Source: a virus. From it: DNA of 64,000 nt. The notes under the pieces were generated by a model. That model worked only from the letters and a program-made list of their open reading frames with translations, did not search any database and was not told the origin of the DNA. The stretch lies in the IMG/VR virus record IMGVR_UViG_3300025849_000032, positions 3,129 to 67,128 of that record; one strand, 5' to 3'. Made by a program: the position numbers and the translations under genes. Shown here in pieces: positions 15,389-57,410 of this stretch (position 1 is its first letter; each line of letters opens with the position of its first letter).

Positions 15389-18300
15389 ATGGCAGAAATA
15401 AAACATTCGTTTCAGGCTGGTAGGATGAATAAAGATCTTGATGAAAGATTAGTTCCTAATGGTGAATATAGAGACGCTTTAAACATAGAAGTAAGAACAT
15501 CGGGTGACAGTGATGTAGGCGCAGCTCAGACTTTGTACGGTAATATAGAAAGACTACCTGCAGCAAAAGATAGTGAAGTTAATGCTACTGAACTATGGAC
15601 TGGAGAGAAAAGTTCTTTCACCGGTTCTATAGCTGATGAAAGAAACAATAAAGCTTATTTTTTTGTAGCTTGTTCTCCTATACCTAGAACTACTATAACC
15701 TCTATTGATATAGTAAACGAAAAAATATACAAAGATATGATTATCGAATATGATAATGTATCTAAAAAAATAGAGCCTGTATTTGTAGACATATTTAGAG
15801 TAGATCTTCCAGGTATTAGAGCTCACTCTGCTAATGTGTTAAACCTTCAAATACTAAAGCTAAGCACTAGTGATGCAGCATTGATAAAGCCAGGCATGAG
15901 TGTTCAAGCTATAGATGATACTGGTCACAACTTATTGAATCCTCAGTACAGTATTTCAGCTAATGGGCAAAGTGATATTAAGGTATTGTCAGTACTTTCA
16001 AATGGGAATGTCTACTTGAATAAGTCAATAGATTATATACCTCCAGGTAGTAATGATATAGCTTGGATTTTTGGTGGGTTAAAAACAGAACACGTACTTA
16101 ACTTTACTAGAAAAGATAAAGAACAAAGAAAACTAATTACAGCTGTAAATATAGTAGATGATTTTTTATTTTGGACAGACTATAATTCAGAGCCAAAAAA
16201 AATAAGCATAAATAGATCTAAGAAAGGTACTCAAAGCTTTGACTCTTACACTGAGTTGATGCTTGATAATACAGATTGGAATAGTTCAGGCTTAACATCA
16301 GTATCCAGCTTAGATCTTGGTACTCATCCGACTGAGGCTAATAGAGGTAATGCTAAAGAAGAGCATATCACCGTAATAAGAAAAGCTCCTCGTACTGCTC
16401 CTAAACTTAACATGTCGTCTTACAAGGATGGCATAGAAAAAGATCTTTTAGGTACTTTCTCGTTTGACTTAAGCTCTAGTGAAAACGATAATATATCACA
16501 GTTTGAATCTCAAGATGAAATTACTATTAATACATCTTCGCTAGATGCTGTATCTGTAGGTACTACTCTTATATTGGAATGCAAGAGCGTTAGCCCAACA
16601 GTAGGCATGGTGGTTACAGTGTTAGAAGCTCTAGATGGTAGTGCTTATAAATGTACTATAGAAAGTCATAGTACTGGCCTTGAGAGTAATATTCACGAAG
16701 ACTGGTCAATAAGAGTAGAGCAGAACAAGCCATTGTTTGAATTAAAGTTTGGTAGATTTTCTTATAGATATAAATACCAAGATGGTGAGTATTCTACTTT
16801 CGCACCTTGGTCAGAGTTGGCTTTTATTCCTGGGCGTTTTGATTACATACCTAAGAAAGGTTACAACTTAGGAATGGTTAATACCGTTAGGTATTTAAGA
16901 GTTGAAGAGTTTGTACCTAATCACAATCAAAGACCTGATGATGTTGTTGAGGTTGATATTCTATATAAAGATACTACGTCACCTAACGTGTATGTGGTTA
17001 AATCTATAAAAAGAGATAGAAACCCAGAGTGGAATGAGTCTAATGGTAGCGAGCATGATGGAGTTTTAAATGTAACTTCTGAGATGATACATAGAACGCT
17101 GCCTTCATCTCAAACTTTAAGATCTTGGGATAACGTACCTAGATACGCTAAGTCGCAGGAGATAACAGGTAATAGACTTTTGTATGGTAATTATGTGCAA
17201 AACTATAATGTCAACCAACCTATAGCGGTTAAAACAGGTTTAGAATCTTTAGAGCACAAGCTTGACCCGAGGGTAGCAATATCTTCACTTAACGAACCTA
17301 CAGCGTACTGGCCTAGCAAGTCAGTTAAATCTATTAGAAACTATAGAGTTGGAGTTGTGTTTGGAGATAAGTACGGTAGAGAAACTCCAGTACTAGGTGT
17401 TGGGGGTTTAATACCAAGTACGACTAACATAGACTCTCATGTGCCTGAAAGCTTAAATATTGAAAAAAAATATTCAGCAAATAATAATAAAATAACAGCT
17501 CAAGTTGAGTGGGGTAATACAAACCCATCAAACTGGATGGAGTACTACAAGTTCTTTATAAAAGAAACATCTTCGGAGTATTACAACTTAGTCATGGATA
17601 GGTGGTACAACGCTGAGGATGGAAATGTATGGCTATCGTTCCAGTCTTCAGATAGGAATAAGTTAGACATAGAAACCTACTTAATACTAAAAAACGGACA
17701 CGGTAGCCAAGAACCCGTAGAAGAAGAAGCTAGATTTAAGATATTAGCAATAGAAAACGAAGCGCCTGATCATATAAAGACTACTAATAAAATACTAGGA
17801 GCTCAATTCTTATCTTCAGACTTTAATGTGATAACTAGCCTACACGAAACTATGATAGCATCTTTTGATGAGTCACAGTGGAACAACGTATTTAATGGTA
17901 TCAGTTTTGAAGGCATTGGATACGCTAGAGTTAGAATGATTAAAGGTACCGATATAAAGCATTCTCAATGGGTTAAAATATCAAGAATAAATAGCATAAA
18001 TTACTCTGTAAGTCTAATTGAAACTATAGGCGAATCTGCTAATATAGTAGGTCTTTTTGGAACTTCATCAGGAGTTACAGTTGAGTTAGAGATAAAAGAC
18101 GCCGTAGTAGAAAACAGACCAGAGTTTGATGGTAGATTTTTTGTTAAAATATTTAGGGACTCTATATTGTCACAATATGTACTGGGCGAAACTCAAGATG
18201 AAGTAACGTATGGAGTTAAAAATGCTTTTCAAGCTGGTTATGTTTATGATGAAAAAACTGGTAACGCAAATCAAAACGCAGCTCAGCAAGGTGATTGGAC

Positions 18301-21112
18301 TACTGGGTCTCAAGTAGGTACGATATACGGTGGAGGAAGCTATGTTTGGGATGGTAACGGTATAACTTCCGATGATGTTACACATCTAGGTACTTGTTCT
18401 AGAAAAGTTAATACAAAGAATTTTTGGACTTGGTACCAATCAGATGGTCCTTTAGGTAGTAACAATACACCTAGAAGTCATACGTGGTTTTTAGATGATA
18501 CTAAAGTAGCTGGAGAATATTTCGAACCTCAATATAATGATGCAGACGGCGGAGAAGTATCAGGTTCGTCATCAGTGGTTGAGCAGAATAGAAATAATGG
18601 ATTAGATGAAGGGGCTTACTATAGTGGTCAACCTGTTAGTGGTAAGTCTAAGATGACTTTCTCTATAATATCAAACAGTCCACCTAACGCACAGACGATG
18701 CCTTTCATGAACTCTATGACTACCATCGGTACTTACTTTAGGTTTGCCGCTGATCCTAATAAAGAAGTTTACCAAGTGATTGGCGCTGGAAATCTTTACA
18801 AGAACCACAATTACCATTACACTGATTTTTTACTAAATATAAATGGTACTGGCTGTCAGAAATGTGAAGAGAGCGACCACTGGAGTTGTTTTAGACAATC
18901 TTTTATAACTAGATTTGCTAAGGTTAGTGATCCTTTACAAGGATTAGATACTAGTGCTTGGGATCCTAGATCTGCAATACCACACGATGGTAAAGCTGCT
19001 ATGAACATACAGATACTAGTAGCTAATATTGATCTTGCTGAACCTTTAGAAATAGAAAACAATGATAATGCTATATGGGAGACTGAACCTAAAGAGAGTG
19101 TTGAGTTAGATTTATACTACGAGGCTAGTGATGCTTTACCTATATACTTAAACCACAGTAACAATAAATCATTCGTACCTTTGAACTCAACTGTTAGTAG
19201 GACTACTACAGGTGGGCTATCTACTCCTTTTCATATATATTACGGTATTGGGCAGTTTTTTAGAAATACGAAAATAATAGTTAGTAATATAGCTAGAGAT
19301 ATAGTTACCTTGCTTAATGTTGGTACTGTTGAAAATCAAGTAGCTCAATCCCAAGGTAGTGCTAAAGCTCAAATCAGTATAGGTGAGAAACTAAAGTATA
19401 CCCACAGCAACGGTATGGTTACTGAAACAGAGGTACTAGATCACTGGAACTCTAATGGTAACCTTAACCAAAGCTATAGCCCATCTGAAGAAATAATACT
19501 ATCTATAAGTGAGGCTAAAGTTTTAGCTTCTAACCCTTCAAGCCCTAGGGTATTAACTGTCTCTGCGAGTGAGACAAATATATCACATACAGGCGACCCG
19601 TTATTTAAATCTGACGGGTCTAGAACATGGGAGGTTATAAGTGAGAATATACCTAGAGGAACTTTTGTAGTCTCTAATAATCAACTTGATTATTTCAACA
19701 GCGTTACAGAAACTTCGCTAGATCCTATAAGTAAAGGTATACAACCTAATACTAGTACTACTACATTGTATCTTATAAGGCCCGGTGAAGAAGATTCTTT
19801 AGGTTTTATAACCTCTGCACCTCTCACACTTTTTACATGGCAAACACAGGATGTTATTTTTAGAGAAGTCACTGGTAATTTTAGATTAAAGTATGATACT
19901 TATAAAAGTAAAGTTACCTTACCTTGGTTTAACTGCTACTCTTTCGGTAACGGACTAGAGTCTGATAGAATTAGAGACGACTTTAATGCGCCTACTATCG
20001 ACAATGGATGCAAGGTCTCTACAACTCTAGATGTATATGGGGAAGAAACCAGAGGTAGTGGGTTGATATACTCAGGTATATATAATTCTAATAGCGGCGT
20101 TAACGCTTTTAATGAATTTAATATGGCTGAAAAAGTAACTAAAGATCTTAACCCATCGTACGGTACTATACAAGCTCTAAAATCTAGAGACACTAACGTA
20201 GTTGCTTTTTGTGAAGATAAAGTGTTAAGAATATTGGCTAACAAAGATGCTTTGTTTAACGCTGATGGTAATGTAAATGTAACTGCCTCGTCTAACGTAC
20301 TAGGTGATGCAACTGCTTTTTCTGGAGATTACGGAATATCTTTAAACCCGGAGTCACTGGCGGTTGATGGTTACAGAATGTATTTCACTGATGTTCAAAG
20401 AAGAAAGATATTAAGATTGTCACAAGATGGTTTAACTCTAATATCTAATAACGGTATGACCACTTACTTTAGAGACACATTGCAAGGTACTAAAGATGTT
20501 CTAGGTACTTTTGATGAAGTTAAGGGTGAGTACAATGTGACTATTGGTTATACTCCAAACAGAAATATAACTAAGCCTAGCCAAACAGTTTCGTTCAGCG
20601 AAAGAGCAAAAGGTTGGTCAAGCTTTAAGTCTTTTATTCCTGAAACTGGATTATCTATAAATGAAGAGTATATAACTGGTGTTGAGTCAAGACTATGGAG
20701 TCATCACGATGAAACAGTTAACGCTAATACTTTTTACGGTACAAAATATAACTCAACTATAGACGTAATGTTTAATGACGTGCCTGGTAGTATCAAGACA
20801 TTTAACACTATAAATTATGAAGGTACTCAAGCTAAAATATCTAAATCCTCTGGAGACGGAGAATACTACAATATAACAGCTAAGGAAGGCTGGTATGTTG
20901 AGTCATTCAACACAGATAAGCAAGAAGCATCTGTCTACGACTTTATAGAGAAAGAAGGTAAGTGGTTCAATAACATAACCGGCTTAGCAACTACTTTAAA
21001 AAACCTAGATACATCTGAGTTTTCAGTTCAAGGCATTGGAAATGTTAGTTCTGTAAATGCTCCTGATGCTCCTACGTCTGTAACATTAACAATAACAGAA
21101 AACAACGATTAA
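15389..21112 (+). CDS. Tail stabilisation/nozzle protein (P22 gp10/crAss muzzle-like), 1907 aa
   Basis: N-terminal GRMNKDLDERLVPNGEYRDALN, FWTD, RFSYRYKY, GNRLLYGNY, C-terminal GWSSFKSF and EKEGKWF motifs. Confidence 0.75.
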   Translation: MAEIKHSFQAGRMNKDLDERLVPNGEYRDALNIEVRTSGDSDVGAAQTLYGNIERLPAAKDSEVNATELWTGEKSSFTGSIADERNNKAYFFVACSPIPRTTITSIDIVNEKIYKDMIIEYDNVSKKIEPVFVDIFRVDLPGIRAHSANVLNLQILKLSTSDAALIKPGMSVQAIDDTGHNLLNPQYSISANGQSDIKVLSVLSNGNVYLNKSIDYIPPGSNDIAWIFGGLKTEHVLNFTRKDKEQRKLITAVNIVDDFLFWTDYNSEPKKISINRSKKGTQSFDSYTELMLDNTDWNSSGLTSVSSLDLGTHPTEANRGNAKEEHITVIRKAPRTAPKLNMSSYKDGIEKDLLGTFSFDLSSSENDNISQFESQDEITINTSSLDAVSVGTTLILECKSVSPTVGMVVTVLEALDGSAYKCTIESHSTGLESNIHEDWSIRVEQNKPLFELKFGRFSYRYKYQDGEYSTFAPWSELAFIPGRFDYIPKKGYNLGMVNTVRYLRVEEFVPNHNQRPDDVVEVDILYKDTTSPNVYVVKSIKRDRNPEWNESNGSEHDGVLNVTSEMIHRTLPSSQTLRSWDNVPRYAKSQEITGNRLLYGNYVQNYNVNQPIAVKTGLESLEHKLDPRVAISSLNEPTAYWPSKSVKSIRNYRVGVVFGDKYGRETPVLGVGGLIPSTTNIDSHVPESLNIEKKYSANNNKITAQVEWGNTNPSNWMEYYKFFIKETSSEYYNLVMDRWYNAEDGNVWLSFQSSDRNKLDIETYLILKNGHGSQEPVEEEARFKILAIENEAPDHIKTTNKILGAQFLSSDFNVITSLHETMIASFDESQWNNVFNGISFEGIGYARVRMIKGTDIKHSQWVKISRINSINYSVSLIETIGESANIVGLFGTSSGVTVELEIKDAVVENRPEFDGRFFVKIFRDSILSQYVLGETQDEVTYGVKNAFQAGYVYDEKTGNANQNAAQQGDWTTGSQVGTIYGGGSYVWDGNGITSDDVTHLGTCSRKVNTKNFWTWYQSDGPLGSNNTPRSHTWFLDDTKVAGEYFEPQYNDADGGEVSGSSSVVEQNRNNGLDEGAYYSGQPVSGKSKMTFSIISNSPPNAQTMPFMNSMTTIGTYFRFAADPNKEVYQVIGAGNLYKNHNYHYTDFLLNINGTGCQKCEESDHWSCFRQSFITRFAKVSDPLQGLDTSAWDPRSAIPHDGKAAMNIQILVANIDLAEPLEIENNDNAIWETEPKESVELDLYYEASDALPIYLNHSNNKSFVPLNSTVSRTTTGGLSTPFHIYYGIGQFFRNTKIIVSNIARDIVTLLNVGTVENQVAQSQGSAKAQISIGEKLKYTHSNGMVTETEVLDHWNSNGNLNQSYSPSEEIILSISEAKVLASNPSSPRVLTVSASETNISHTGDPLFKSDGSRTWEVISENIPRGTFVVSNNQLDYFNSVTETSLDPISKGIQPNTSTTTLYLIRPGEEDSLGFITSAPLTLFTWQTQDVIFREVTGNFRLKYDTYKSKVTLPWFNCYSFGNGLESDRIRDDFNAPTIDNGCKVSTTLDVYGEETRGSGLIYSGIYNSNSGVNAFNEFNMAEKVTKDLNPSYGTIQALKSRDTNVVAFCEDKVLRILANKDALFNADGNVNVTASSNVLGDATAFSGDYGISLNPESLAVDGYRMYFTDVQRRKILRLSQDGLTLISNNGMTTYFRDTLQGTKDVLGTFDEVKGEYNVTIGYTPNRNITKPSQTVSFSERAKGWSSFKSFIPETGLSINEEYITGVESRLWSHHDETVNANTFYGTKYNSTIDVMFNDVPGSIKTFNTINYEGTQAKISKSSGDGEYYNITAKEGWYVESFNTDKQEASVYDFIEKEGKWFNNITGLATTLKNLDTSEFSVQGIGNVSSVNAPDAPTSVTLTITENND

Positions 21113-26515: not shown

Positions 26516-29500
26516 GTGATGAAGAAATACAACTTGAATGGCAGGGTCATATCAGTAAGACCTGAGCATGAACAACAATTTTTAGAAAATAATCCTACTG
26601 CGACTCTAGTAGTGGGAAATCAAGGGGACTCCAATCAGAGCGCGAACGTGGAGTCTCAGACATCAGCGCAAAATCCACAACAAGAGAGTACGGAATTAAA
26701 ATCGGTAGATGGTTCTTCGGAGTCACAAGAAGAGCTTAGTTGGAGTGAAGGCTTAATTGAGTTCGCTAAGGGCTTTGCTGACCCTGACGAATACTCTCAA
26801 GCTTATGATTTTATTTCAGAAGTACCAGGTAATATAGTCAACAGTCTAGAAGTAATGTTAGAATCTGTCAACAATGCTATGATGGATGCTAACAAGAGAG
26901 TTGGTGAAGCTACTGGTATGTTTGATGCTTTAGAAAGCTTGAGTGACTATGATAAGGGTTCTACATCTGAACTTATAGATAAAGAGATAATAAAGAGCTA
27001 TAATAACATAGATAAAATAAAGGCCGAAAGAGGTGATACTGGTAAGGGTTTTATAAAAGGTTTGAAGGGTGAGGGATTCGCAGATGTGATCGGTGCTACA
27101 TCATCATTTATAGCTGGTACACTAGAAACTATTATACCAGCTATGCTAACTAGAGGTACGTCTTTATTTCCTCAAATAGTAGCCCCAATGTATACGGAGT
27201 ATAATGCAACTAAGGCGAAAGCTTTGTATGGTGACAACGAAGAGGCTATAGAGAAACTTGTTGAAAATGATGAGTTAGAAATAATGGTACCTTTAGTTCT
27301 AGGTACCGCAGCAGTTGGTTTGGAAAAGGTCGGGTTGGAAGGTATAACTAAGTACGCTTTCGGAAAGAAAACAGCTAGCAATTTAACAATTAAATTACTA
27401 GGTACTATGAGTACTGAAGGTACTACTGAATGGGCTCAGAGTGGTATAGAAAAATTCAGCAGTTCAATTGCAGAGCAGAAAGATATTACACAAGCTTCAG
27501 CTGACGCCTGGGATCACTTGCTTAGTGAGGAAGGAGCCGAGGCTTTTTTATCAGGCTTTATTGGTGCAGGTGGTTCTGCTGCTGGAGGTAGAGCTATAAA
27601 TAGAGCATTCACCAATGACGCTGAATCTTTAAATACACTCAACAATGTAGCTAATGAAATATCTAGCCTAAATGAGAAGAAGCAACTCACTAAAAATAAG
27701 GTAGCAAGAAAAGCGATTCAGACTAGAATAGATGATTTGTCTTCTAAGCTAAAAACGTATGTAGAAAATAATAGAGGCTTAAAGAATTACATAACAGAAG
27801 AACAAAGATCTAGTTTGATAAATTTAATGGAGAATAAAGATGACTTAACTAGTCAAATCTCTGATCTTCAAAAAGAGCTAGATGCTGGTAGAATAACTGG
27901 CAAAGAGTTTGACGACTCCACAAAAGGATTAAGCGACAAAATAAAAAGCATAGACACTAGTATATTTGATATAAAGCAAGAAGCTGTTAAAATTCAGTCA
28001 TCTAAACTTGTTGAAAAGGTAAAAACAAAAATATCAAGCTTAGGTTTAAAAGGTAGTATAGAAGAATTAACATCTAAAGAGATAGAAGACTTAGACTTAG
28101 GATTTGAAAAAACAGAAGATGGTAAATTTGTATTAGATAAAGAAGGTAATAAAATAAAAAACTCTAAGTCCATATCTACAGAGTATGGAGCTATAGTACA
28201 GAACCTTGATGGCAGCTTTAAGATAATAATAAATAAGGATAAACCAGCAATTGGTACAGCCGCTCATGAGTTCTTACATGTTGTATTGGCAAAAACTTTA
28301 GGGGAAAACCAAAGTATTGCAGCTAAAATAGCTAGTGCTTTGAACGAGCATGTTAACACTTTAAAAGGAGATCAATCAGTAATGAGAGATCGATTAGACA
28401 GAGCTTATGGTGATTCTGAATACTATAATGAAGAAACTATAACAGTTATGTCTGAAAGTATACTTGACGGGACATTGAAGTTTGACGATGGATTTTTTAC
28501 TAAAATAGGAGATTTTGTTAGACAATTCCTTCAAGAAAAAGGTTTTAAGGAAATAGAATTAAATACAGGTAAGGATGTATATAATTTTATAAAGGACTTT
28601 AACAAAAGTGTACAATCAGATAAATTTAACAAAGCTTTTGCTGACGTAGCTAAAGAAGGAGTTAAAGGTAGTTTAGCCAAAGAGGGTAGTGTAGCTAAGG
28701 AAGGTGTTAAACCTAAAGCTAATGACACTGATTCTACTATAAAGAAATCTGCTGATGTTAAACCAGAAGTAGACGAGCTAGGTAGTATGGGCTGGACTAA
28801 GGATACTTGGAAGAGTCAAGGTGCCGATTTAGCGATAGCTGAAATGCAAGCTAACAAAATGCTAGATGGTCTTATAGCTGCTAAAATGAAAGGTGGTTTA
28901 AGAGATGGTAGCAATGATATTAAAAAAGACTTTATATCTAAAGTCTATGCAGAGCTTACTTCACATGTTAAGAACTTCGACCCAGAGAGTAACGATAGTT
29001 TATTCGGATGGGTTAACTCACAGATAAGTAACAAGGCAGGTAACGTATATAACAGAGAATATAAAGACAAGTCTCTTGAAAGAGCCGTTGACATAGATGC
29101 TACAACTTCTGAAGGAGCTCCTCTCGTGCAGATAGAAGCCGATACAGATGTTTTAATGGAAGCTATTGATGAAATAGGTTTAGATGAAACAGAAGTTGAA
29201 GAGAGGTCACGATTACGACGTGATATAAGATTAGATGGTAAGATGATGCAGACGGTTCGTAATGCTGTTATCAAAACGTTTGGTACTAAGTTACCTAACG
29301 TAGACTCTAAGAAATTTAGAACTGCATTAGAGAAAGCATTTAGAACTGAACTTAAAAAACCTTTACAAGATTTAATGGGTGGTAGATCTGAGTATGATTT
29401 ATTCCTACGTAACCATGCTAAAGCTATAATCAAAGCTTTTCCAGTGGAGACTCTAGTTCAAATGGAGCGTAACTTAAAACCTGAGCAGAGAATATTCACA

Positions 29501-32500
29501 GAGTCTAGACGTATTACTAAGCCAACTGAGGTTGATGAATTAATAAGTGAAGGTAAATTACCTAAGGATACTAATAGAACTTCTGGTCCTCAATTACACA
29601 CTAAGAAATCTTTTCCTGGTGTAGAAAAAGTAATGGCTTACTTTAGAGGTAAGGACATGGAGACTGTTCTTGGTTATAAGGTTGGAGCATCGACATTAGG
29701 GACTAGAAAAGATAAACTGGCAATGGAGCTTGGCGTTGAGCTTGCTTTTGATGCTACAGCTGAGACTATACAAAATCCTGAGGTTGCTGAGAAAAGACAG
29801 ATGATACTTGAGCTTCAAGGCATAGAGCAATTAGAAAATGAGCTAGCTGTTATTGGCAAGCAAATAGATAGAGATCCTAGTATTAAGTTTAGTAAGAAAG
29901 GTAATATAGCTAAAGACTTTTACGGTGACGTTATGGATGGTGGTATGACTGAAAACTCTGTAAGAGTAGCAGCTAACAAACATTATCCAGATAGTAATAA
30001 ATCTGCTTTAAATAAAATAGTAAAACAAACGTTAAAGAAGGTTGGTATTGTAATAGAACGTGACGAAGTCCTACAAGGTAAACTAAAAGAGATAAGCGGT
30101 AAAACCAAGGTAGATGTACTATTAGAGATTGACGCTCAAGATAATTTTAAGAAGGGTGTTAAAAATGCTTTAAGAGGATTACTTGAAGCTGAGAGTAATG
30201 GTAAGGCTATAGACCCTGGTACTCTAGCTAATACTGTAAAAGGATTGAATGCCCAAAGAAACCACTTAGTTAATGTGGTAGGAAGCCTAGTAGAAACAGA
30301 AGGTTTAGTTAAAGGTGTTGAAGTTGTTATAGCTCACACTCAGGCAATGTATGCTGGTGCTGGTAAAGCAGGAGACGGTGGACTTATGCCTCACAAACCT
30401 GGTGGGCAGATAATACCAACACCTAATTGGAACGGTGATAACGGACTTAAATGGAAAGTTTATACCCAAGCTGATGTGAATGCAGGAAGAGTACCTAAAG
30501 GTAAAAAGATAGGTGACTTTAAGTTAGACAGTAAAGGGAGAAAAATATCTAGAGATAACAGACAGCAGGCTACTAATGGTGTTGAGGATTTTGTAGCGTT
30601 AATAAATCAAGGTTTACCTAAGGGTACTATACTTACCAACCCTAGTAAAGGTAAGTTTGTTTTAACTGATGCTAAGACTGGGGTTAAAACAGACTTGAAT
30701 ACTAGTTTGCATGGAGAATCTTCGGCTTCTCTTTTTTCTGATATGAAAAGAAAAGGTGTTAAGCAGACATTTAAAGATAGAAAGCAAGCATCATTGGATG
30801 CTAGAAAAGTAACTAAAGTAGTACTAGACTTAGCTTGGAGTAAAATAAATAAAGGTGAAATGACAGCTGGAGACTTTGGCTTACTAGTCATGAGTATTGG
30901 TTCGTCTATGAATTCACCACTAAGAAGATCCGCTTACGCCGACAGGGTTCCTTCTAACTACAAACAACTAATTGCGAAGTACGGACCTAAAGCTGTAGGT
31001 AAACTTTTCCAATATGAACATGGAACACCTAAGGAAGCTGTAGCTACTAAGATAATACAGTCCTACCTTGATACAGGTAAGATGAGTGATAAAGTTTGGG
31101 ATAATTACACAGTACAGGTAATACATAAAGCGCTTGATAGAATAATAGATGCATCAGGACATAAATATACTGAAAGAATTGATGGTCAACCTAGAGCTTT
31201 CAATGCTCAGACTATAGCATTAGCAGTAGACTTGAGCAGCAAAGATTTTAATGAGTTGGCCCCTCTTGAAAGTTTAGATCCTAGCGATACTGAGGTTATG
31301 GGTAAGAACTGGTTGGAGGTTGTTGACTTGCTTAGAAATAAAGTAGAGTTATCTCCTAACGTTTTATCTAGAGCTGGTAAAGGTGCTAGAACTATGAAGT
31401 GGTCTAAGGATGCTGGAACTAAAGGTATGTCTACGTTTGACTTTGACGAGACTTTAATTATAGATGGTGAGAACTTTATAACAGCCACTGATCCTGTAAC
31501 TGGTAAAGAGCTTAAGCTTAGTAGTGGTGAGTGGCCTATTAAAGGACCTGGTCTTGCTGCTGACGGTTTTACGTTTGACTTCTCTGACTTTGTTAATGTT
31601 AGAGGTGGGACAGACGGGCCACTGCTTCAAAAGATGAAGAATCAAGTAAAGAAATACGGTAATAAAAATGTCTTTGTTCTTACAGCTCGTATGCAAGATG
31701 CAGCTGGACCTATACACGGTTGGTTAAAGAGTAAAGGTGTTGATATACCTTTTAAAAATATCACTGGTCTAGGCGATGGTAGAGGTGAAGCTAAGGCTGA
31801 ATGGATGCTAGATAAGTTCGCAGAAGGTTACAACGACATGTACTTTGTAGATGATGCAATGCCTAACGTAGATGCAGTTAAAAAAGTGTTAGATCAATTA
31901 GACATAAAATCTAAAGTAGTTCAAGCTAAAATTAAGTTTAGTAAAGATGCTAGCAAGGACTTTAATGATATGCTCGAAAGAAATAAAGGTGTTGCATCTA
32001 GCGATGTAGTATCCGCTGCTAGAGCTAAGATACGTGGTAAACAAGTTAGAGGCACTTTCTTTGTACCACCTTCGGCTGAAGATTTTAAAGGACTTATATA
32101 TAGCTTCTTAGGTAAGGGTAAGCAAGGTGACCAAGACTTGAGATGGTTTAAAGAAAACCTTTTCGACCCTTTCTCTAAAGCTACAAGAGAAATGGACTCA
32201 GTAAAACAGAAGATGACTGAGGAGTATAACGCTATAAAGAAGGCTTTTCCAGATACTATAAAAGGTTTATCTAAGAAAATAGCAGGTACGGACTTTACTT
32301 TAGATAATGCTATAAGAGTTTACTTATGGAACGAAGCTGGTATAGAGGTTCCTGGGTTGTCTGAAAAAGAAGTTAACGCATTGTGGAGTTCTGTTAAAGC
32401 AGACCCTAAAAGTGAGGCTTTCGCTCAAGCACTTAGTGCTATGTCTAGACAGGCCGATGGTTACTTATCTCCTAATAATCATTGGACAGCTGAGACTATA

Positions 32501-34243
32501 GCTTCCGACTTAGCTAATATTGTAAACAAAGTTAACAGAGCTGATTATCTAGCCGAGTGGATAGAGAGTAAAGATTTAGTATTCTCTAGCGACAACTTGA
32601 ATAAAATAGAAGCTATATATGGTACTAACTTTAGAGAAGCTCTCGAGGACATGCTGTATGCTATGGAGATTGGTAGTAATAGACCTACAGGTAAAGATAA
32701 AGATGTTAACAAGTTTTTAAACTGGATCAATGGCTCTGTTGGAGCTGTGATGTTCTTTAATACTAGGTCCGCAGTGCTACAGACTTTGTCTACTGTTAAC
32801 TTCTTGAACTTTGAAGATAATAATATATTCTCAGCTGCTAAAGCATTTGCTAATCAAAAGCAGTTCTGGTCTGACTTTTCTATGATATTTAACTCTGACA
32901 TGCTAAAACAAAGACGTGCAGGGTTAAAAATAGATGTATCAGCTAACGAACTAACTGAAGCTTTCTCTAAAGGTAAGAGTAAGACTGAAGCTATTATAGC
33001 TCATCTACTTCAATTAGGTTTTACACCTACACAGTTAGCGGATAGCTTCGCTATAGCTATGGGTGGTTCAACGTTCTATAGAAACAGAGTTAAGAAATAT
33101 TTAAAAGAAGGTAAGTCTCAGAAAGATGCAGAGTCTCAAGCGTTTTTAGATTTCCAAGAGATAGCAGAAGAGACACAACAGTCTTCTAGACCTGACCTTA
33201 TATCTAAACAACAGAGAGGAGTTCTTGGTCGTATAATACTTGCATGGGCAAATACTCCAATGCAGATGACTAGACTAACTAAGAAAGCTTTATCTGACTT
33301 AGTAAATAGAAGAGGAGATACTAAAGCTAATATATCTAGAATTATATACTACGGTGTTGCTCAGAACATCATATTTGGTACGCTTCAAACTGGTCTTGCT
33401 TTCTTAGCATTTGGCTCTGAAGAAGAAGAGGAGAAGACTGATGCCAAACAGTTACGTATGGTAAATGGTGTATTCGATACTTTACTTAGAGGTACTGGAG
33501 TTTGGGGAGCTGCTGCTTCTACATTGAAGAATATTATAATGCAGTTACACGAAGAGCTTGGTAAAGGCTTTGGCAAGAAAGACTGGTCTCGTATTAGTCA
33601 GAAAATATTTGATTTATCTCCACCACTCGGTACTAAGCATAGAAAGATAATGAATGCCATAAAGACATATGACTATAATAAAGATGTTATAGAGAAAATG
33701 GATCATGGTATTAATAACCCTGGCTGGAACGTATTTACTAATGTAGTCGAAGCTATGACTAACGCTCCTATTGCTAGAGTACTTAATAAAGCTCAGAACC
33801 TGAAGCTAGCAATGCAAGCTAATATAGAACCTTGGCAAAGAATAGCTATTGGATTAGGTTGGAGTGCTTGGAGTGTAGGTGTTGAAGATCAAGAAATCAA
33901 AGATGTTAAATTAGAGGTTAAACAAGATAGAGCTGAAAAGAGTAAGGAAAGAGCTAAAGAAAAGAAAGCTAAGAACAATGCTGATAAGCAAAAAGAAAAA
34001 GAATCTAAAGGTCTTAAAAAGGTTAGATGCTCAGGCATTAAATCTGATGGTAATAGATGTAGTATTAGAGTAGAAACTAAAAATAAATCTGCTAAGTGCA
34101 CATACCATAAAGCTTTTAAGCCTGGTGGAGATTCAGATGGCGATGGTAAAAAAGAATACAGATGTAAGGCTTCTACCTCTTCGGGTAACAGATGTAAGAA
34201 TAGAACTGAAAATAAAAACAAAAAGTGCTATGCGCATCAATAG
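26516..34243 (+). CDS. Giant multidomain (polyvalent) virion/ejection protein: HExxH protease, sigma-like segment, possible His-Me nuclease-like segment, HAD domain, helical C-terminal region, Cys/His repeats
   Basis: AAHEFLH (28265-28279); NFDPESNDSLFGWVNSQI; FDFDETL..LTAR..K..FVDD; two CxxxxxxGxRC...CxxH repeats; start GTG 26516 or ATG 26519. Confidence 0.8.
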   Translation: MMKKYNLNGRVISVRPEHEQQFLENNPTATLVVGNQGDSNQSANVESQTSAQNPQQESTELKSVDGSSESQEELSWSEGLIEFAKGFADPDEYSQAYDFISEVPGNIVNSLEVMLESVNNAMMDANKRVGEATGMFDALESLSDYDKGSTSELIDKEIIKSYNNIDKIKAERGDTGKGFIKGLKGEGFADVIGATSSFIAGTLETIIPAMLTRGTSLFPQIVAPMYTEYNATKAKALYGDNEEAIEKLVENDELEIMVPLVLGTAAVGLEKVGLEGITKYAFGKKTASNLTIKLLGTMSTEGTTEWAQSGIEKFSSSIAEQKDITQASADAWDHLLSEEGAEAFLSGFIGAGGSAAGGRAINRAFTNDAESLNTLNNVANEISSLNEKKQLTKNKVARKAIQTRIDDLSSKLKTYVENNRGLKNYITEEQRSSLINLMENKDDLTSQISDLQKELDAGRITGKEFDDSTKGLSDKIKSIDTSIFDIKQEAVKIQSSKLVEKVKTKISSLGLKGSIEELTSKEIEDLDLGFEKTEDGKFVLDKEGNKIKNSKSISTEYGAIVQNLDGSFKIIINKDKPAIGTAAHEFLHVVLAKTLGENQSIAAKIASALNEHVNTLKGDQSVMRDRLDRAYGDSEYYNEETITVMSESILDGTLKFDDGFFTKIGDFVRQFLQEKGFKEIELNTGKDVYNFIKDFNKSVQSDKFNKAFADVAKEGVKGSLAKEGSVAKEGVKPKANDTDSTIKKSADVKPEVDELGSMGWTKDTWKSQGADLAIAEMQANKMLDGLIAAKMKGGLRDGSNDIKKDFISKVYAELTSHVKNFDPESNDSLFGWVNSQISNKAGNVYNREYKDKSLERAVDIDATTSEGAPLVQIEADTDVLMEAIDEIGLDETEVEERSRLRRDIRLDGKMMQTVRNAVIKTFGTKLPNVDSKKFRTALEKAFRTELKKPLQDLMGGRSEYDLFLRNHAKAIIKAFPVETLVQMERNLKPEQRIFTESRRITKPTEVDELISEGKLPKDTNRTSGPQLHTKKSFPGVEKVMAYFRGKDMETVLGYKVGASTLGTRKDKLAMELGVELAFDATAETIQNPEVAEKRQMILELQGIEQLENELAVIGKQIDRDPSIKFSKKGNIAKDFYGDVMDGGMTENSVRVAANKHYPDSNKSALNKIVKQTLKKVGIVIERDEVLQGKLKEISGKTKVDVLLEIDAQDNFKKGVKNALRGLLEAESNGKAIDPGTLANTVKGLNAQRNHLVNVVGSLVETEGLVKGVEVVIAHTQAMYAGAGKAGDGGLMPHKPGGQIIPTPNWNGDNGLKWKVYTQADVNAGRVPKGKKIGDFKLDSKGRKISRDNRQQATNGVEDFVALINQGLPKGTILTNPSKGKFVLTDAKTGVKTDLNTSLHGESSASLFSDMKRKGVKQTFKDRKQASLDARKVTKVVLDLAWSKINKGEMTAGDFGLLVMSIGSSMNSPLRRSAYADRVPSNYKQLIAKYGPKAVGKLFQYEHGTPKEAVATKIIQSYLDTGKMSDKVWDNYTVQVIHKALDRIIDASGHKYTERIDGQPRAFNAQTIALAVDLSSKDFNELAPLESLDPSDTEVMGKNWLEVVDLLRNKVELSPNVLSRAGKGARTMKWSKDAGTKGMSTFDFDETLIIDGENFITATDPVTGKELKLSSGEWPIKGPGLAADGFTFDFSDFVNVRGGTDGPLLQKMKNQVKKYGNKNVFVLTARMQDAAGPIHGWLKSKGVDIPFKNITGLGDGRGEAKAEWMLDKFAEGYNDMYFVDDAMPNVDAVKKVLDQLDIKSKVVQAKIKFSKDASKDFNDMLERNKGVASSDVVSAARAKIRGKQVRGTFFVPPSAEDFKGLIYSFLGKGKQGDQDLRWFKENLFDPFSKATREMDSVKQKMTEEYNAIKKAFPDTIKGLSKKIAGTDFTLDNAIRVYLWNEAGIEVPGLSEKEVNALWSSVKADPKSEAFAQALSAMSRQADGYLSPNNHWTAETIASDLANIVNKVNRADYLAEWIESKDLVFSSDNLNKIEAIYGTNFREALEDMLYAMEIGSNRPTGKDKDVNKFLNWINGSVGAVMFFNTRSAVLQTLSTVNFLNFEDNNIFSAAKAFANQKQFWSDFSMIFNSDMLKQRRAGLKIDVSANELTEAFSKGKSKTEAIIAHLLQLGFTPTQLADSFAIAMGGSTFYRNRVKKYLKEGKSQKDAESQAFLDFQEIAEETQQSSRPDLISKQQRGVLGRIILAWANTPMQMTRLTKKALSDLVNRRGDTKANISRIIYYGVAQNIIFGTLQTGLAFLAFGSEEEEEKTDAKQLRMVNGVFDTLLRGTGVWGAAASTLKNIIMQLHEELGKGFGKKDWSRISQKIFDLSPPLGTKHRKIMNAIKTYDYNKDVIEKMDHGINNPGWNVFTNVVEAMTNAPIARVLNKAQNLKLAMQANIEPWQRIAIGLGWSAWSVGVEDQEIKDVKLEVKQDRAEKSKERAKEKKAKNNADKQKEKESKGLKKVRCSGIKSDGNRCSIRVETKNKSAKCTYHKAFKPGGDSDGDGKKEYRCKASTSSGNRCKNRTENKNKKCYAHQ

Positions 34244-53777: not shown

Positions 53778-53811
53778 TATATTATCCGAAAGCGATCGTA
53801 TTTATATTGTA
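53778..53811 (-). promoter_or_regulatory. Class I (early) promoter copy
   Basis: TACAATATAAATACGA-N9-GATAATATA on minus strand. Confidence 0.75.
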
Positions 53812-53812
53812 T

Positions 53813-54547
53813 TTAGAGTGTATCGTTTAATAAAAATTGTTTAAAGTCAAACTCTTCGTCTCCGTAATATAAGTCATAAGCCTCTGAAGCTCTACGAACT
53901 TTATCTTCACCGCGTTTATAAAAATCTGGTGAGCAATCGAATACACCGATCTGTTTAGTGTTTTTATCTATAACTATGAATACCATTTCATACCCGAATA
54001 ACTTACTGTATATATAAGCTTGGCTATCGTAGTTATACTTAGAAGCTGACCATCTGAACTTTTCAATATCAGAAGTTGTCTTAAGGTCAATCACAAGTTT
54101 TTCATCGTGGTTAACTATATCAGCCTTACCTTTCCACATATTACCAAACAGTTCTATAACGGCAGGTTCTTCGTATATGTAGTTACCAAGTACAGGTGCT
54201 ATTAAGTCTCTGCAAACATCGTTAGCCATTACAGCTTCTTGCATTAATTCTACTTGATCAACCTCGTGTTGTAGTAGACACATTTCTCCTTCTGATAATT
54301 CTTTGTACTTCTTAGTGTTTCTAGTTGTAGCTTCAACTATTTTAAAACTATTAAGTTTTTCAGGTTCAAGAATTGCTGTGTGGAAATAACCACCTACTAA
54401 GAAAGCTGGTATGTTAGCTTGTTTATCTCGTAGTCTAGCTGGATTTTTAAGCAACGTACCTATATTAGAGTTACTTAAAAACTGTTGACCAAACTCTCCG
54501 TAGTAGTCTTCATCGTTTCTTAAACGATCTATTATTTTTTTAGTCAT
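53813..54547 (-). CDS. PD-(D/E)xK exonuclease (RecE/exonuclease VIII-like)
   Basis: LSNS, GGYFHTAILEP, KGKADI, IDLKTT, YDSQAYIY. Confidence 0.85.
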   Translation of the reverse strand: MTKKIIDRLRNDEDYYGEFGQQFLSNSNIGTLLKNPARLRDKQANIPAFLVGGYFHTAILEPEKLNSFKIVEATTRNTKKYKELSEGEMCLLQHEVDQVELMQEAVMANDVCRDLIAPVLGNYIYEEPAVIELFGNMWKGKADIVNHDEKLVIDLKTTSDIEKFRWSASKYNYDSQAYIYSKLFGYEMVFIVIDKNTKQIGVFDCSPDFYKRGEDKVRRASEAYDLYYGDEEFDFKQFLLNDTL

Positions 54548-55091
54548 TTTCCTTGATATTTACGTTATGTCTTAATATCTTTTTCTGCTGAGCAGTTAAA
54601 GTATATTTAGACTCTATAGCACTTACTTCACCTCCATTAGCTATATACTCTACAGCTTTTTTCATTTGTGCATCAGTTATCTTAGCCTTCTCTTTCTTAA
54701 CAGGAGGTTGACCGGCATCTGCATCTTCAGTGTCATCTATTAATAATAGATTACCTAATGCATACTTTTTACCATAAGTGGAAGCTGCACCGAATTGCTG
54801 AGATGTTTGCATACCTTTTTGATTAAGGTCTACACCGACTATTGCTGTTGCTGTGATTTGATTTTCGCCATCGGAGATGATAGCTGTGGATTTCATCATA
54901 GGTACGGGATCTGTCCCTATAATTTCTTCAGTCATCGTTACTGTAACGAGCTGCTCTAATAAGAAAGGCTTTATAGCCTCGAGGATGTCTTCCGCTTTTC
55001 GAAAGTAATACTTTCCGAATGAGTTGTAGGAAGATTTTTTAGCTTTTAATTCAGTCTGAATTACTGCTAGACTTTTGTTTAGTTTATTCAT
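54540..55091 (-). CDS. ERF-family single-strand annealing recombinase
   Basis: YNSFGKY, EDILEAIKP, QQFGAASTYGKKYALGNLLLIDD.EDAD. Confidence 0.88.
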   Translation of the reverse strand: MNKLNKSLAVIQTELKAKKSSYNSFGKYYFRKAEDILEAIKPFLLEQLVTVTMTEEIIGTDPVPMMKSTAIISDGENQITATAIVGVDLNQKGMQTSQQFGAASTYGKKYALGNLLLIDDTEDADAGQPPVKKEKAKITDAQMKKAVEYIANGGEVSAIESKYTLTAQQKKILRHNVNIKEND

Positions 55092-55112
55092 TGGCTTTTG
55101 GTTTATTGGTAC

Positions 55113-55143
55113 CTATATAATCACATAAAGGCCCCAAGATTTA
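55113..55143 (-). promoter_or_regulatory. Class II promoter candidate upstream of ERF gene
   Basis: Minus strand TAAAT cttggggccttta TGTGAttatatag, same 13-nt spacer. Confidence 0.7.
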
Positions 55144-55162
55144 ACATTATTTTAAGCTTAAT

Positions 55163-55918
55163 TTACAGATAATCAACCACTTGCGAGTGAGGGACAGTTT
55201 CTATTAGCTTTTGTATTGCTTGCTTTTTAAGCTGTGAAATACGCACATAAGAGCTAGTACCTTTAATACCTAATACGTCTGCAATTCCTTTAGCCTGCAT
55301 CTTATCACAGTCAAGGCCATATGACAATCTTAACACTTGGTATTCTTTAGGGTTTAAGTTCTCCATCATTACACCTTTTAAATAAGCTAGAAGAAGATCT
55401 TTATTATAACCGCTAGTGTTGTCTGGTATATCATACGCAGAATCTGTTTCATCGTTTTTCTTGTCTAAACTTAAAAACACAGAATTAAAGAATAGTGCAA
55501 CCATTTTTTTATCTTCACCAAAATCTTTACGTATTTCATTTAATTTATGTTCTGGTATACGCATGGTACCTCTATTCATATCAATACCTCGACGTATAGC
55601 ACCACGTATTCTTTTAGCTAGAAAAGATTTTAATCTTTGTTCTTGATCTTCAGCCGCGTTTATTAGATCCCATTGTATCTTATCTACTGCGGCAACCAAA
55701 CCTAAGCTACCTTCTTGTATAAAATCTGTCACATCCATAGCACCTGATGCTTGCTGTGAAGTTGAAAACTTTCTGGCTAGATTCTCTACTAAAGGTAAAA
55801 ACGTTACTATTAATTCATCTCTAGTATACTCATTAAATTGTTTTTTACCTATTAGCCGTATGCTCTCTTTAACATCGTCTTTATATCTAATATAGTTCTG
55901 TATATTGTATTTTTTCAT
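55163..55918 (-). CDS. Sigma-70 family RNA polymerase sigma factor (group 3-like)
   Basis: LPLVENLARKF, DFIQEGSLGLVAAVDK, RIRGAI, MRIP, SLD, LNPKEYQVLRLSYGL..IADVLGI..VRISQL region 2/3/4 motifs. Confidence 0.92.
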   Translation of the reverse strand: MKKYNIQNYIRYKDDVKESIRLIGKKQFNEYTRDELIVTFLPLVENLARKFSTSQQASGAMDVTDFIQEGSLGLVAAVDKIQWDLINAAEDQEQRLKSFLAKRIRGAIRRGIDMNRGTMRIPEHKLNEIRKDFGEDKKMVALFFNSVFLSLDKKNDETDSAYDIPDNTSGYNKDLLLAYLKGVMMENLNPKEYQVLRLSYGLDCDKMQAKGIADVLGIKGTSSYVRISQLKKQAIQKLIETVPHSQVVDYL

Positions 55919-57147: not shown

Positions 57148-57148
57148 A

Positions 57149-57409: not shown

Positions 57410-57410
57410 A

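What the first reader, a model, noticed from the sequence alone, without database searches (positions are those of the whole stretch)
28751..29893. Sigma-70-like module embedded in the virion ejection protein: candidate injected sigma factor for early transcription
Seen: the ~380-aa module contains KKDFISKVYAELTSHVKNFDPESNDSLFGWVNSQISNKAGNVYNRE, matching the region-2 pattern (D..Q...L.....FDP.....F..Y....I.N). It is followed by AVDIDATTSEGAPLVQIEAD (region 3.2 SLD-like) and later GKDMETVLGYKVGASTLGTRKDKL (possible region-4 HTH, weak). No virion RNA polymerase motif was noticed in the window, yet the six early promoters lack the host consensus. Inference: the phage packages a sigma factor, releases it proteolytically and redirects host core RNAP to class I promoters. 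That would express the separately encoded sigma (55163) for class II promoters, giving a two-sigma cascade started by an injected protein.
Basis: inference. Interest (0 to 1): 0.9.

Follow-up and report, generated by a model that had tools for sequence, protein, structure and literature searches.

The report
Sigma-factor domain inside giant phage protein
A giant protein encoded among the virion genes of an uncultured marine phage really does contain a very divergent copy of the core-binding, promoter-opening domain of bacterial sigma factors, which suggests the phage may deliver a tool aimed at the host's RNA polymerase, although what that tool does is still open.

Summary

The "region 4 HTH" is not supported. 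Residues 896-1122 form a conserved domain with no recognisable fold.

The module sits between IK[KF]S[AK] motifs in a multi-domain protein (HExxH, sigma2 module, HAD-like, helical C-terminus). That protein lies where cultured relatives carry giant "structural" proteins and crassviruses carry their virion RNA polymerase.

The genome (CheckV 100%) has no recognisable RNA polymerase. Packaging, cleavage and polymerase binding are inferred, not shown.

The proposed cascade is weakened. The free sigma gene has its own conserved sigma70-like promoter. The class I promoters co-occur with the free sigma and are absent from a clade that keeps the module.

First-stage readers in this scan also noted the same architecture in other genomes.

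The parts
26516..34243 (+). Giant ORF, 2575 aa (P0001), GTG start; multi-domain protein of the virion/cargo gene block
   Evidence: family of 372 and 376 relatives, almost all 2000-3900 aa; conserved blocks at aa 550-1130 and 1640-2575
28166..28738 (+). Zincin-like segment; HExxH at aa 584-588 (28265-28279), with a nearly invariant Glu downstream
   Evidence: motif; H, E, H and the downstream E are nearly invariant in A1/A2/A3. No Pfam hit; fold not tested
28739..28753 (+). Border motif IKKSA (aa 742-746), N-terminal edge of the module
   Evidence: this first border is not conserved in the family consensus
28772..29068 (+). Sigma2-like domain, aa ~753-851 (five helices). Its most conserved part, aa 810-849, aligns with sigma regions 2.2-2.4
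   Evidence: fold; sequence profiles; language model; conservation
29069..29200 (+). Conserved acidic linker, aa 852-895, predicted disordered
   Evidence: pLDDT <50 at model residues 113-125 and 128-156; conserved consensus; the TIGR02937 alignment runs through it to profile position 107
29201..29881 (+). Conserved 230-aa alpha/beta-hairpin domain of unknown fold, aa 896-1122. Holds the family's most conserved motif, S-T-x-G-T-R-K-D (aa 1059-1066)
29882..29896 (+). Border motif IKFSK (aa 1123-1127), C-terminal edge of the module
   Evidence: a motif of this kind follows the module in 89 of 162 giants
29897..31393 (+). Variable region, aa 1128-1626, shared with only 24-44 of 120 relatives
31394..31945 (+). 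HAD-like domain (DFDET at aa 1642-1646) bracketed by MKWSK (aa 1627-1631) and IKFSK (aa 1806-1810)
   Evidence: D, D, T, the T of LTAR, K and DD are nearly invariant. No Pfam hit above noise
31946..34240 (+). Conserved C-terminal region, aa 1811-2575, ending in two Cys/His repeats
   Evidence: no family or PDB match; no tblastn match in cultured phages
15389..21112 (+). Crassvirus-muzzle-like virion protein upstream, marking the cargo gene block
   Evidence: PF25729 crAss_MUZ_C 1.3e-7; phrog_14478 4.5e-120
55163..55918 (-). Separately encoded canonical sigma factor, 251 aa
   Evidence: Sigma70_r2 1.1e-5 and r4 1.9e-5; hhalign to the sigma2 and sigma4 profiles 96.8 and 97.3
56563..56590 (-). 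Sigma70-like promoter element GTGACA-16-TATAGT inside a palindrome, just upstream of the HTH-sigma operon
   Evidence: conserved in 6 of 6 genomes looked at
53778..63749 (-). Six class I promoters, TAAAYACGA-N9-GATAATATA, at 53778, 58401, 60871, 62058, 62972 and 63723
   Evidence: 6 found, 0.01 expected; conserved in 12 of 14 related records

Best explanation
Residues ~753-851 of the giant protein are a true but very divergent sigma-70-family sigma2 domain. They are followed by a conserved acidic flexible linker (852-895) and a conserved 230-residue domain of unknown fold (896-1122). Together these form one ~380-residue module, one of several blocks of a polyvalent virion cargo protein: coiled-coil N-terminus, HExxH zincin-like domain, sigma2 module, variable block, HAD-like domain, and a helical C-terminus with Cys/His repeats.

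The mechanism I think most likely is inferred, not shown. The protein is packaged and cut at the IK[KF]S[AK] borders, either by its own HExxH domain or by a head protease. It is then ejected ahead of or with the DNA. The released module docks through its sigma2 domain on the beta-prime clamp helices of the host RNA polymerase core. In that case the phage delivers a polymerase-targeting factor at the genomic position where crassviruses carry a whole virion polymerase.

It is not resolved whether the module starts transcription at a phage promoter, competes with host sigma, or holds polymerase at the entering DNA. On present evidence the class I promoters are more likely read by the phage's free sigma than by this module.
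For: Sigma2 identity:
- The AF2 model of aa 740-1135 has pLDDT 80, with 83-91 over most of residues 11-110.
- Foldseek PDB has no hit at E<=0.001. Its weak top rows include WhiG, sigmaE region 2, FliA, sigma32 and sigmaS.
- In BFVD, after family members, 12 of the 50 rows shown are named phage sigma factors.
- TIGR02937 is the only NCBIfam hit (E 3e-4), on aa 803-900.
- hhalign gives Prob 91.1, E 1.1e-6; reversed controls give 0.3.
- Pfam Sigma70_r2 itself hits the same domain in a divergent family member (E 6.4e-4, inside a 2483-aa frame). A cellular sigma2 HMM hits it at 1.7e-4.
- ESM Atlas score 0.96.
- The N-domain HMM finds the domain directly upstream of the C-domain in 51 of 58 IMG/VR loci.

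Cargo context:
- The gene follows a muzzle-like gene.
- In crAss001 the genes after the muzzle encode MS-detected cargo and polymerase-associated proteins (PMC10172136, passages read).
- Syntenic giant genes in phi38:1 (1691 aa) and an elemo phage (3694 aa) are annotated 'structural protein'.
- Some homologues carry extra kinase domains, PF06414/PF13671, as polyvalent proteins do (PMC5512222, passages read).

Borders: the motif occurs exactly 4 times in the protein, all at block borders. It occurs 1.55 times per giant against 0.087 in shuffles, over 183 giants.

No polymerase gene.

Docking: complex prediction of the sigma2-like domain with RPOC_FLAJ1 residues 225-375 gave 'weak support'.
- Score 0.49 (runs 0.49, 0.34, 0.63); best of 3 controls 0.01.
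- The mark was reached by 58 of 80 solved complexes and 2 of 110 mismatched pairs. At 0.60 or under it was reached by only 7 of those 80, and by both mismatches that passed.
- Runs agree in >=72% of contacts; partner pLDDT >=75.
- Sigma/beta-prime complexes are solved, so the pass may only reflect likeness.
Against: - No curated sigma model passes its threshold. Pfam gives nothing for this protein. TIGR02937 scores 20.5 bits against a cut-off of 42.9.
- Five of six hhalign query/template combinations gave only Prob 2-38. hhalign against the phage's own sigma family gave 0.3.
- In the family consensus the D and QE positions of sigma region 2.2 are not kept. Region 2.2 is the part I recall as contacting beta-prime.
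- No sigma4 was found.
- No member of this protein family occurs in 50,697 cultured-phage records. The syntenic giants of cultured relatives show no significant similarity. So there is no proteomic evidence that this protein is in virions.
- Seven of 58 loci lack a detectable N-domain.
Confidence: 0.45

Rival explanations
1. The module is a complete injected sigma factor that directs host core polymerase to the six class I promoters. Those promoters express the free sigma, which then reads class II promoters.
For: - The sigma2 domain is followed by a linker and a second conserved domain, the layout of a two-domain sigma.
- Within the sigma2-like domain the best conserved stretch is the one aligned to regions 2.2-2.4, and the -10-like box GATAATATA is almost invariant across the group.
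- Class I promoters lie at the right end, all pointing inward, upstream of small early-type genes and of the sigma gene.
- There is no enrichment of Bacteroidetes-type promoters (7 found, 7.4 expected) or sigma70-type promoters (32 found, 44 expected).
- No polymerase gene was found.
Against: - The HTH-sigma operon has its own conserved sigma70-like promoter in 6 of 6 genomes.
- Class I motif and free sigma occur together. Of 14 long records, 12 have the motif and 13 have the sigma. The one record with the sigma but no motif is cut off at the sigma gene.
- Both are absent in the five records of a divergent clade that keeps the module, one of them 95% complete.
- The free sigma is far better conserved than the module where the promoter is unchanged.
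- No HTH/sigma4 was detected.
Confidence: 0.15
2. The domain descends from sigma2 but no longer touches RNA polymerase. It serves as a nucleic-acid-binding or packing module of the cargo protein, for example holding single-stranded or end DNA, or organising the protein inside the capsid.
For: - The region-2.2-like positions are poorly conserved, while the helix aligned to the DNA-contacting regions 2.3-2.4 is conserved.
- The complex test gave only weak support.
- The module persists in a clade with neither free sigma nor class I promoters.
- Small free-standing sigma2-like proteins exist in other phages.
Against: - All known sigma2 domains among the structural matches are polymerase subunits.
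- The complex score was 0.48 above every control.
- The genomic position matches where relatives carry transcription cargo.
Confidence: 0.2
3. The sigma2-like domain is the promoter-recognition part of an unrecognised virion RNA polymerase whose catalytic part lies elsewhere in the same giant protein.
For: - The giant protein sits where crassviruses encode their virion polymerase.
- Most of the phi14:2 polymerase has no recognisable fold (abstract of 10.1101/2020.03.07.982082).
- About 1900 residues of this protein remain without a fold assignment.
Against: - There is no DFDxD-type motif in any frame of the genome.
- No Pfam or PDB sequence match to any polymerase was found.
- The block after the module is variable in the family.
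- The remaining conserved blocks are a HAD-like domain and a region with no family or PDB match. My reading of that region as helical is by eye and was not tested.
- The other domains were not folded here.
Confidence: 0.07
4. The likeness is a coincidence of a common helical arrangement, and the domain is unrelated to sigma factors.
For: - There is no Pfam hit in this protein.
- Foldseek E-values are all >=0.15.
Against: - Ranks 1-27 of 48,161 chains are of one family.
- Independent sequence signals point to the same family at the same residues.
- Reversed controls fail.
- The language-model hit agrees.
Confidence: 0.05

Closest known systems
Sigma-70 family sigma factors, region 2 domain (Pfam Sigma70_r2; NCBIfam TIGR02937)
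   Same: Same fold for aa ~753-851. A weak profile match covers regions 2.2-2.4. An acidic linker follows the domain.
   Different: Below every curated threshold. Embedded at residue ~750 of a 2575-aa protein in the virion gene block. No detectable sigma4. The second domain is 230 residues of unknown fold. Region-2.2 signature positions are not kept.
Phage T4 late sigma gp55. The assignment of 7d7d chain F to gp55 is my recollection; the tool gives only the entry title.
   Different: As I recall it, gp55 is a small free protein made during infection, and it needs gp33 and the sliding clamp. Here the domain is part of a giant protein encoded with virion genes.
Polyvalent proteins of phages and conjugative elements (Iyer et al. 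2017, PMC5512222)
   Same: Giant multi-domain protein with a zincin-like HExxH domain proposed to process the polypeptide. In that paper's proposal such proteins are delivered with the DNA to 'jump-start transcription' (abstract and passages read). Some homologues here add kinase domains.
   Different: The word 'sigma' does not occur in that paper's text. None of Pfam's families, including its LPD families, matches this protein. Delivery is untested here.
Virion RNA polymerases of crass-like phages (phi14:2 gp66; crAss001 gp47/gp49/gp50)
   Same: Giant cargo proteins encoded just after the muzzle gene that start phage transcription on entry. The present gene has the same position after a muzzle-like gene.
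   Different: No DFDxD motif and no sequence similarity (PHROGs gives 0 families). The protein would supply a polymerase-binding factor rather than a polymerase.
T4 Alt, an injected modifier of host RNA polymerase (as described in PMC5512222)
   Same: A packaged protein that acts on host RNA polymerase at the moment of DNA entry.
   Different: Alt is an ADP-ribosyltransferase. Here the candidate acts by sigma-like docking.

Membership tests
Sigma-70 family (sigma factors) | Sigma2 (region 2) helical fold | tested here: met
Sigma-70 family (sigma factors) | Passes a curated sequence model (Pfam Sigma70_r2 gathering score, or the TIGR02937 cut-off) | tested here: not met
   No Pfam hit. TIGR02937 scores 20.5 bits against a cut-off of 42.9, E 3e-4. 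Profile-profile Prob 91.1 in one of six combinations.
Sigma-70 family (sigma factors) | Sigma4 helix-turn-helix domain for the -35 element and the beta flap (absent in some members) | tested here: inconclusive
   hhalign of the C-domain and of the whole module against the sigma4 profile gives Prob 0.4, while the phage's own sigma scores 97.3. No sigma4 rows appear in VIA or Foldseek. A small HTH inside a 230-residue domain could escape these searches.
Sigma-70 family (sigma factors) | Binds RNA polymerase core through the beta-prime clamp helices | tested here: inconclusive
   Complex prediction 'weak support': 0.49 against a best control of 0.01. May reflect likeness to solved complexes.
Sigma-70 family (sigma factors) | Confers promoter-specific initiation | not testable with these tools
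   Needs in vitro transcription.
Polyvalent (delivered multi-domain) proteins | Many unrelated domains in one giant polypeptide, including a zincin-like HExxH peptidase | tested here: met
   HExxH plus a downstream Glu are nearly invariant. HAD-like motifs are nearly invariant. Sigma2 domain. Variable blocks and extra kinase domains occur in relatives. The peptidase fold itself was not tested.
Polyvalent (delivered multi-domain) proteins | Packaged in the virion and delivered into the host | not testable with these tools
   Only synteny with 'structural' giants of phi38:1 and elemo phages, and with crassvirus cargo genes.
Crass-like virion RNA polymerase | DFDxD catalytic motif in a double-psi beta-barrel | tested here: not met
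   No D[FY]DxD in six frames of the genome.

The most novel reading that the evidence does not exclude
A large, abundant group of uncultured marine podophages has replaced the virion RNA polymerase of crassvirus-type phages with a virion-delivered sigma-like factor. The ~380-residue module would be cut out of the cargo polyprotein, injected, and joined to host core polymerase, starting phage transcription before any phage gene is expressed. It would act either at the class I promoters (TAAAYACGA-N9-GATAATATA) or at the TGTGACR-N17-TATAGTA promoters that drive the phage's own sigma gene. That would be the first injected sigma factor.
Probability: 0.2. Interest if true: 0.9.

Novelty: new variant of a known kind. 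Interest (0 to 1): 0.68.

Why it matters
Phages are known to start transcription in three ways:
- with host holoenzyme;
- with an injected complete polymerase (N4, crass-like and phiKZ-like phages);
- by modifying host polymerase with injected enzymes (T4 Alt).

A sigma2 domain carried inside a virion cargo protein would be a fourth way: bringing only the specificity or docking subunit. My phrase searches of about 8.4 million papers and preprints found no mention of a packaged or injected sigma factor. The polyvalent-protein survey does not mention sigma.

The family is large: 376 cluster representatives at 50% identity. It comes mostly from marine metagenomes. The proposal is directly testable with a 43-kDa recombinant fragment and a 27-nt promoter.

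Even if the module proves not to be an initiation factor, it adds a new domain type to delivered phage proteins. It also gives a handle on the transcription programme of an uncultured phage group.

Tried and rejected
Searches that gave nothing for the module:
- Pfam and PHROGs on the whole protein and on six pieces gave no sigma family; PHROGs gave 0 families.
- PDB sequence searches found only low-complexity matches. This was phmmer with the protein and hmmsearch with the family profile.
- BLASTP of the module against the phage's own sigma gave nothing significant; best E was 0.031 for a single comparison.
- hhalign of the module family against the phage's own sigma family gave Prob 0.2-0.3 with a narrow template of Neff 2.
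- The Pfam Sigma70_r2 and r4_2 models, run over the genome's six frames, hit only the free sigma (r2) or nothing (r4_2).

Sigma4/HTH reading of aa 1045-1068:
- hhalign against a sigma4 profile gave Prob 0.4.
- Foldseek found nothing at E<=0.001.
- ESM Atlas gave no usable hit.

Cultured relatives:
- tblastn of the module and of the C-terminal 947 aa against 50,697 phage records found no match.
- megablast of the gene found none.
- HMMs of the module against the syntenic giants of phi38:1, an elemo phage and MW202828 gave nothing convincing. The best was a domain E of 0.0024 on a part of the module that is not the sigma-like core.

Polymerase genes:
- PF00623 gave no hit, and its control rang in 14 of 14 genomes.
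- PF00940 gave no hit, but its control rang nowhere, so it is uninformative.

Promoters:
- The Bacteroidetes TTG-N17-21-TAnnTTTG pattern was found 7 times against 7.4 in shuffles, none in the early arm.
- The sigma70-type scan of 53000-64000 found 32 against 44 expected.
- The exact pattern TGTGACR-N15-18-WATAGT was found in only 6 of 18 related records, always by the HTH-sigma operon. It therefore says nothing about the module.

Other limits:
- Supplementary files of the papers were not opened. Supplementary tables of the phi14:2 and crAss001 papers might bear on cargo proteins.

Full report
**What is there.** The finding's coordinates (28751-29893) lie inside one open reading frame, 26516-34243 on the + strand, 2575 aa. 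They correspond to aa 746-1126. The three quoted peptides are present exactly at aa 803-848, 857-876 and 1045-1068. The window is bases 3129-67128 of a 67,128-nt IMG/VR virus record that CheckV rates 100% complete.

The neighbouring genes are virion genes:
- large terminase (4308-6539);
- portal (6543-8882);
- capsid-type structural protein (10111-11616);
- a 1907-aa protein whose C-terminus matches the crassvirus muzzle domain (PF25729, 1.3e-7);
- tail-fibre-like genes.

The other arm, on the minus strand, carries ribonucleotide reductase, a thymidylate-synthase-like gene, primase-helicase, ERF, ligase, and a canonical 251-aa sigma factor at 55163-55918. Terminase and portal are most like those of podophages of Flavobacteriia: Flavobacterium elemo phages, Cellulophaga phi38:1 and Calle, and Tenacibaculum and Maribacter phages, at 26-47% identity. 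An uncultured freshwater podophage is closer, at 53-63%.

**The protein family.** The module belongs to a large family. A word-indexed search found 372 relatives. Full HMMER against 1.84 billion cluster representatives found 376. Nearly all are giants of 2000-3900 aa from metagenomes; shorter hits look like contig-end fragments.

Against 120 relatives, two blocks are shared by almost all: aa ~550-1130 and ~1640-2575. The N-terminal 550 aa and aa ~1150-1640 are shared by only 15-64 and 24-44 of them respectively.

Conserved features visible in the alignments are:
- HExxH at aa 584, with a nearly invariant Glu downstream;
- the module;
- a HAD-type motif set (DFDET at aa 1642, then T, K and DD);
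- a long C-terminal region ending in two Cys/His repeats.

Some relatives insert kinase domains (PF06414/PF13671). No family in Pfam or PHROGs matches the protein. No cultured phage among 50,697 records has the module or the C-terminal region by tblastn.

**Is there a sigma region 2? The fold evidence.** An AlphaFold2 model of aa 740-1135, built with 30 homologues, has mean pLDDT 80. It shows a five-helix N-domain (model residues ~6-110), a segment with pLDDT below 50 (113-156), and a second domain (157-388).

**The sequence evidence.**
- NCBIfam TIGR02937 (sigma70-ECF) is the only model of 18,950 hit at E<=10. It gives E 3e-4 and 20.5 bits for the module (residues 64-161 on profile positions 28-107), and E 4.5e-3 for the N-domain alone. 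This is well below the curated 42.9 bits.
- I built a profile of the N-domain from 159 family members, and a profile of 28 cellular sigma2 domains taken from five bacterial genomes. Two of the 30 loci were dropped because my script had picked the wrong ORF.
- hhalign gave Prob 91.1, E 1.1e-6 over 74 columns. It aligned aa 769-848 with sigma regions 1.2-2.4. Reversing either alignment gave Prob 0.3.
- The other five query/template combinations were weaker (Prob 2-38), though they aligned the same residues.
- Comparison with the phage's own narrow sigma family gave nothing.
- In a divergent family member, the Pfam Sigma70_r2 model itself hits the N-domain inside a 2483-aa frame (E 6.4e-4 per genome). 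My cellular sigma2 HMM hits the same place at 1.7e-4.
- The ESM Atlas places aa 745-855 next to viral clusters named 'sigma-70 region 2 domain-containing' (0.96). These may be fragments of the same family.

Taken together, I hold the sigma2 assignment at about 0.9.

**What follows the sigma2 domain.** It lies where sigma factors have their linker, and the TIGR02937 alignment runs through it. That is all that can be said about it.

The second domain (aa 896-1122) is the best conserved part of the module; the motif S-T-x-G-T-R-K-D is invariant. Modelled alone it is confident (pLDDT 84, pTM 0.81), but it matches nothing:
- Foldseek finds nothing;
- the Atlas gives no hit;
- hhalign to a sigma4 profile gives Prob 0.4, while the phage's own sigma scores 97.3 on that profile.

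The 'region 4 HTH' is therefore unsupported. A small helix-turn-helix buried in a larger domain cannot be excluded.

**Borders and processing.** A motif of the form [IM]K[KFW]S[AK] occurs exactly four times in the protein, at aa 742, 1123, 1627 and 1806. These are the edges of the module and of the HAD-like block. This follows another first-reader note (e1-6191226).

In 183 giants of the family a stricter form of the motif occurs 1.55 times per protein, against 0.087 in shuffled sequences. It lies:
- just after the module in 89 of 162;
- just before the HAD block in 46 of 114;
- just after the HAD block in 65 of 114.

With the conserved HExxH...E upstream, this fits the 'processing by zincin-like peptidases' theme of polyvalent proteins (PMC5512222, abstract and passages). 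Cleavage itself is not shown.

**Is it virion cargo?** This rests on position only. In crAss001 the genes after the muzzle gene encode cargo proteins and three polymerase-associated giants, all detected in virions by mass spectrometry (PMC10172136, passages). In phi38:1, an elemo phage and MW202828, a giant gene (1691, 3694 and 3859 aa) sits at the same place. In the first two it is annotated 'structural protein'. These giants show no significant similarity to the module.

**Does it touch RNA polymerase?** One complex prediction paired the sigma2-like domain with residues 225-375 of Flavobacterium johnsoniae beta-prime. It returned 'weak support':
- score 0.49 (runs 0.49, 0.34, 0.63), best of three controls 0.01;
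- the mark was reached by 58 of 80 solved complexes and 2 of 110 mismatches, but at 0.60 or under by only 7 of those 80 and by both mismatches that passed;
- runs agree in at least 72% of contacts, and partner pLDDT is at least 75.

Sigma/beta-prime complexes are solved, so this may show likeness only. The family consensus does not keep the acidic and polar signature of region 2.2. Within the domain, conservation is highest over aa 810-849.

**The proposed cascade.** The six class I sites are real: TAAAYACGA-N9-GATAATATA, all on the minus strand, 6 found against 0.01 expected. The genome has no recognisable polymerase. There is no D[FY]DxD in six frames. PF00623 is absent with a working control. 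PF00940 is absent, but its control rang nowhere.

- Of 14 long records that carry the module, 12 have the class I motif, with 4-10 copies each, on one strand apart from a single opposite-strand match in one record. The reversed-pattern control found 0. This includes records whose module is only 33-39% identical.
- 13 of the 14 have the free sigma. One copy is cut by the contig end. The free sigma is 57-62% identical in the distant records.
- A more divergent clade of five records, one of them 95% complete, keeps the module (N-domain E 1e-13 to 1e-26). It has neither a free sigma nor the class I motif.
- The free sigma does not depend on class I. In 6 of 6 genomes examined, a sigma70-like element TGTGACR-N16/17-(T/A)ATAGTA ends about 10 nt before the start of the HTH gene that is translationally coupled to the sigma gene. 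The window copy, at 56563-56590, scores 10 of 12 to the TTGACA/TATAAT consensus.
- The phi14:2 study reports that promoters of that type in a Cellulophaga phage are used by host polymerase (10.1101/2020.03.07.982082, passages).

The simpler programme is therefore: host holoenzyme makes the HTH protein and the free sigma, and the free sigma reads class I. The module has a separate role. Neither Bacteroidetes-type nor sigma70-type promoters are enriched. The class I sites sit at one end of the genome pointing inward, as early promoters of T7-type phages do; that comparison is from my own knowledge.

**Verdict.** The region-4 claim fails. The injected-sigma cascade is one possible reading, and not the best supported one.

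I file the thing as a new variant of known kinds: a sigma-70-family domain in a new setting, namely a giant multi-domain protein of the virion gene block. Phrase searches for a packaged, injected or ejected sigma factor found no paper. A broader search found nothing relevant. Other first-stage notes of this scan describe the same architecture in three other genomes, and one of them names a 'sigma-like domain'. I did not check those.

Noticed in passing
window 56545-56592 (-) and 63948-63996 (+); loci L175, L177-L180: A conserved sigma70-like element TGTGACR-N16/17-(T/A)ATAGTA ends ~10 nt before the start codon of the HTH gene coupled to the sigma gene, in 6 of 6 genomes examined. In the window it forms the left half of a palindrome and recurs at the right end of the genome. 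The short distance to the start codon would leave almost no leader on the mRNA.
   Followed up: partly
window 53778-63749 (-); records G006-G019: The class I motif TAAAYACGA-N9-GATAATATA is kept almost letter for letter in 12 of 14 related virus records, with 4-10 copies each and all but one match on a single strand per record. The proteins of these records have diverged to 33-60% identity.
   Followed up: yes
records G014, G020-G023 (loci L154, L155, L171, L148, L173): A divergent clade keeps the giant protein with its module but has neither the free sigma gene nor the class I motif. Its promoters are unknown.
   Followed up: partly
loci L137, L144, L151, L152, L157, L158, L160: Seven of 58 IMG/VR loci have the conserved C-domain of the module but no N-domain detectable with the family HMM. 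The sigma2-like part may be replaced or too divergent in these.
   Followed up: no
genome 1-76 (outside the window) and window 63372-63447: An exact 76-nt repeat links the start of the virus record with a place 629 nt before its end. The record is classed as linear with no end repeats.
   Followed up: no
window 31394-31945: The HAD-type phosphatase motif set (DFDET, T, K, DD) is nearly invariant across the family and tightly bracketed by border motifs. Its substrate is unknown, and there is no Pfam hit above noise.
   Followed up: partly
homologues P0009, P0024, P0026, P0034-P0036 and others: Many relatives of the giant protein carry an added Zeta-toxin/AAA_33-type kinase domain (PF06414, PF13671). 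One BFVD relative is labelled UDP-N-acetylglucosamine kinase.
   Followed up: no
BFVD hits A0A1B4XWX9 (Tenacibaculum phage pT24, 119 aa) and A0A8D9CBE4 (uncultured marine phage Gp112, 122 aa): Small free-standing proteins with a sigma2-like fold (Foldseek prob 0.99, TMt 0.54-0.58). They may be single-domain relatives of the module's N-domain.
   Followed up: no
window 1-526 and genome 2071-3399: The phage encodes a GroEL-like chaperonin, as do the related elemo phages and MW202828, which also have GroES.
   Followed up: no
window 42945-46256: A 1103-aa tail protein carries a SASA-type carbohydrate esterase domain (PF03629, 2e-16), likely a receptor-modifying enzyme.
   Followed up: no
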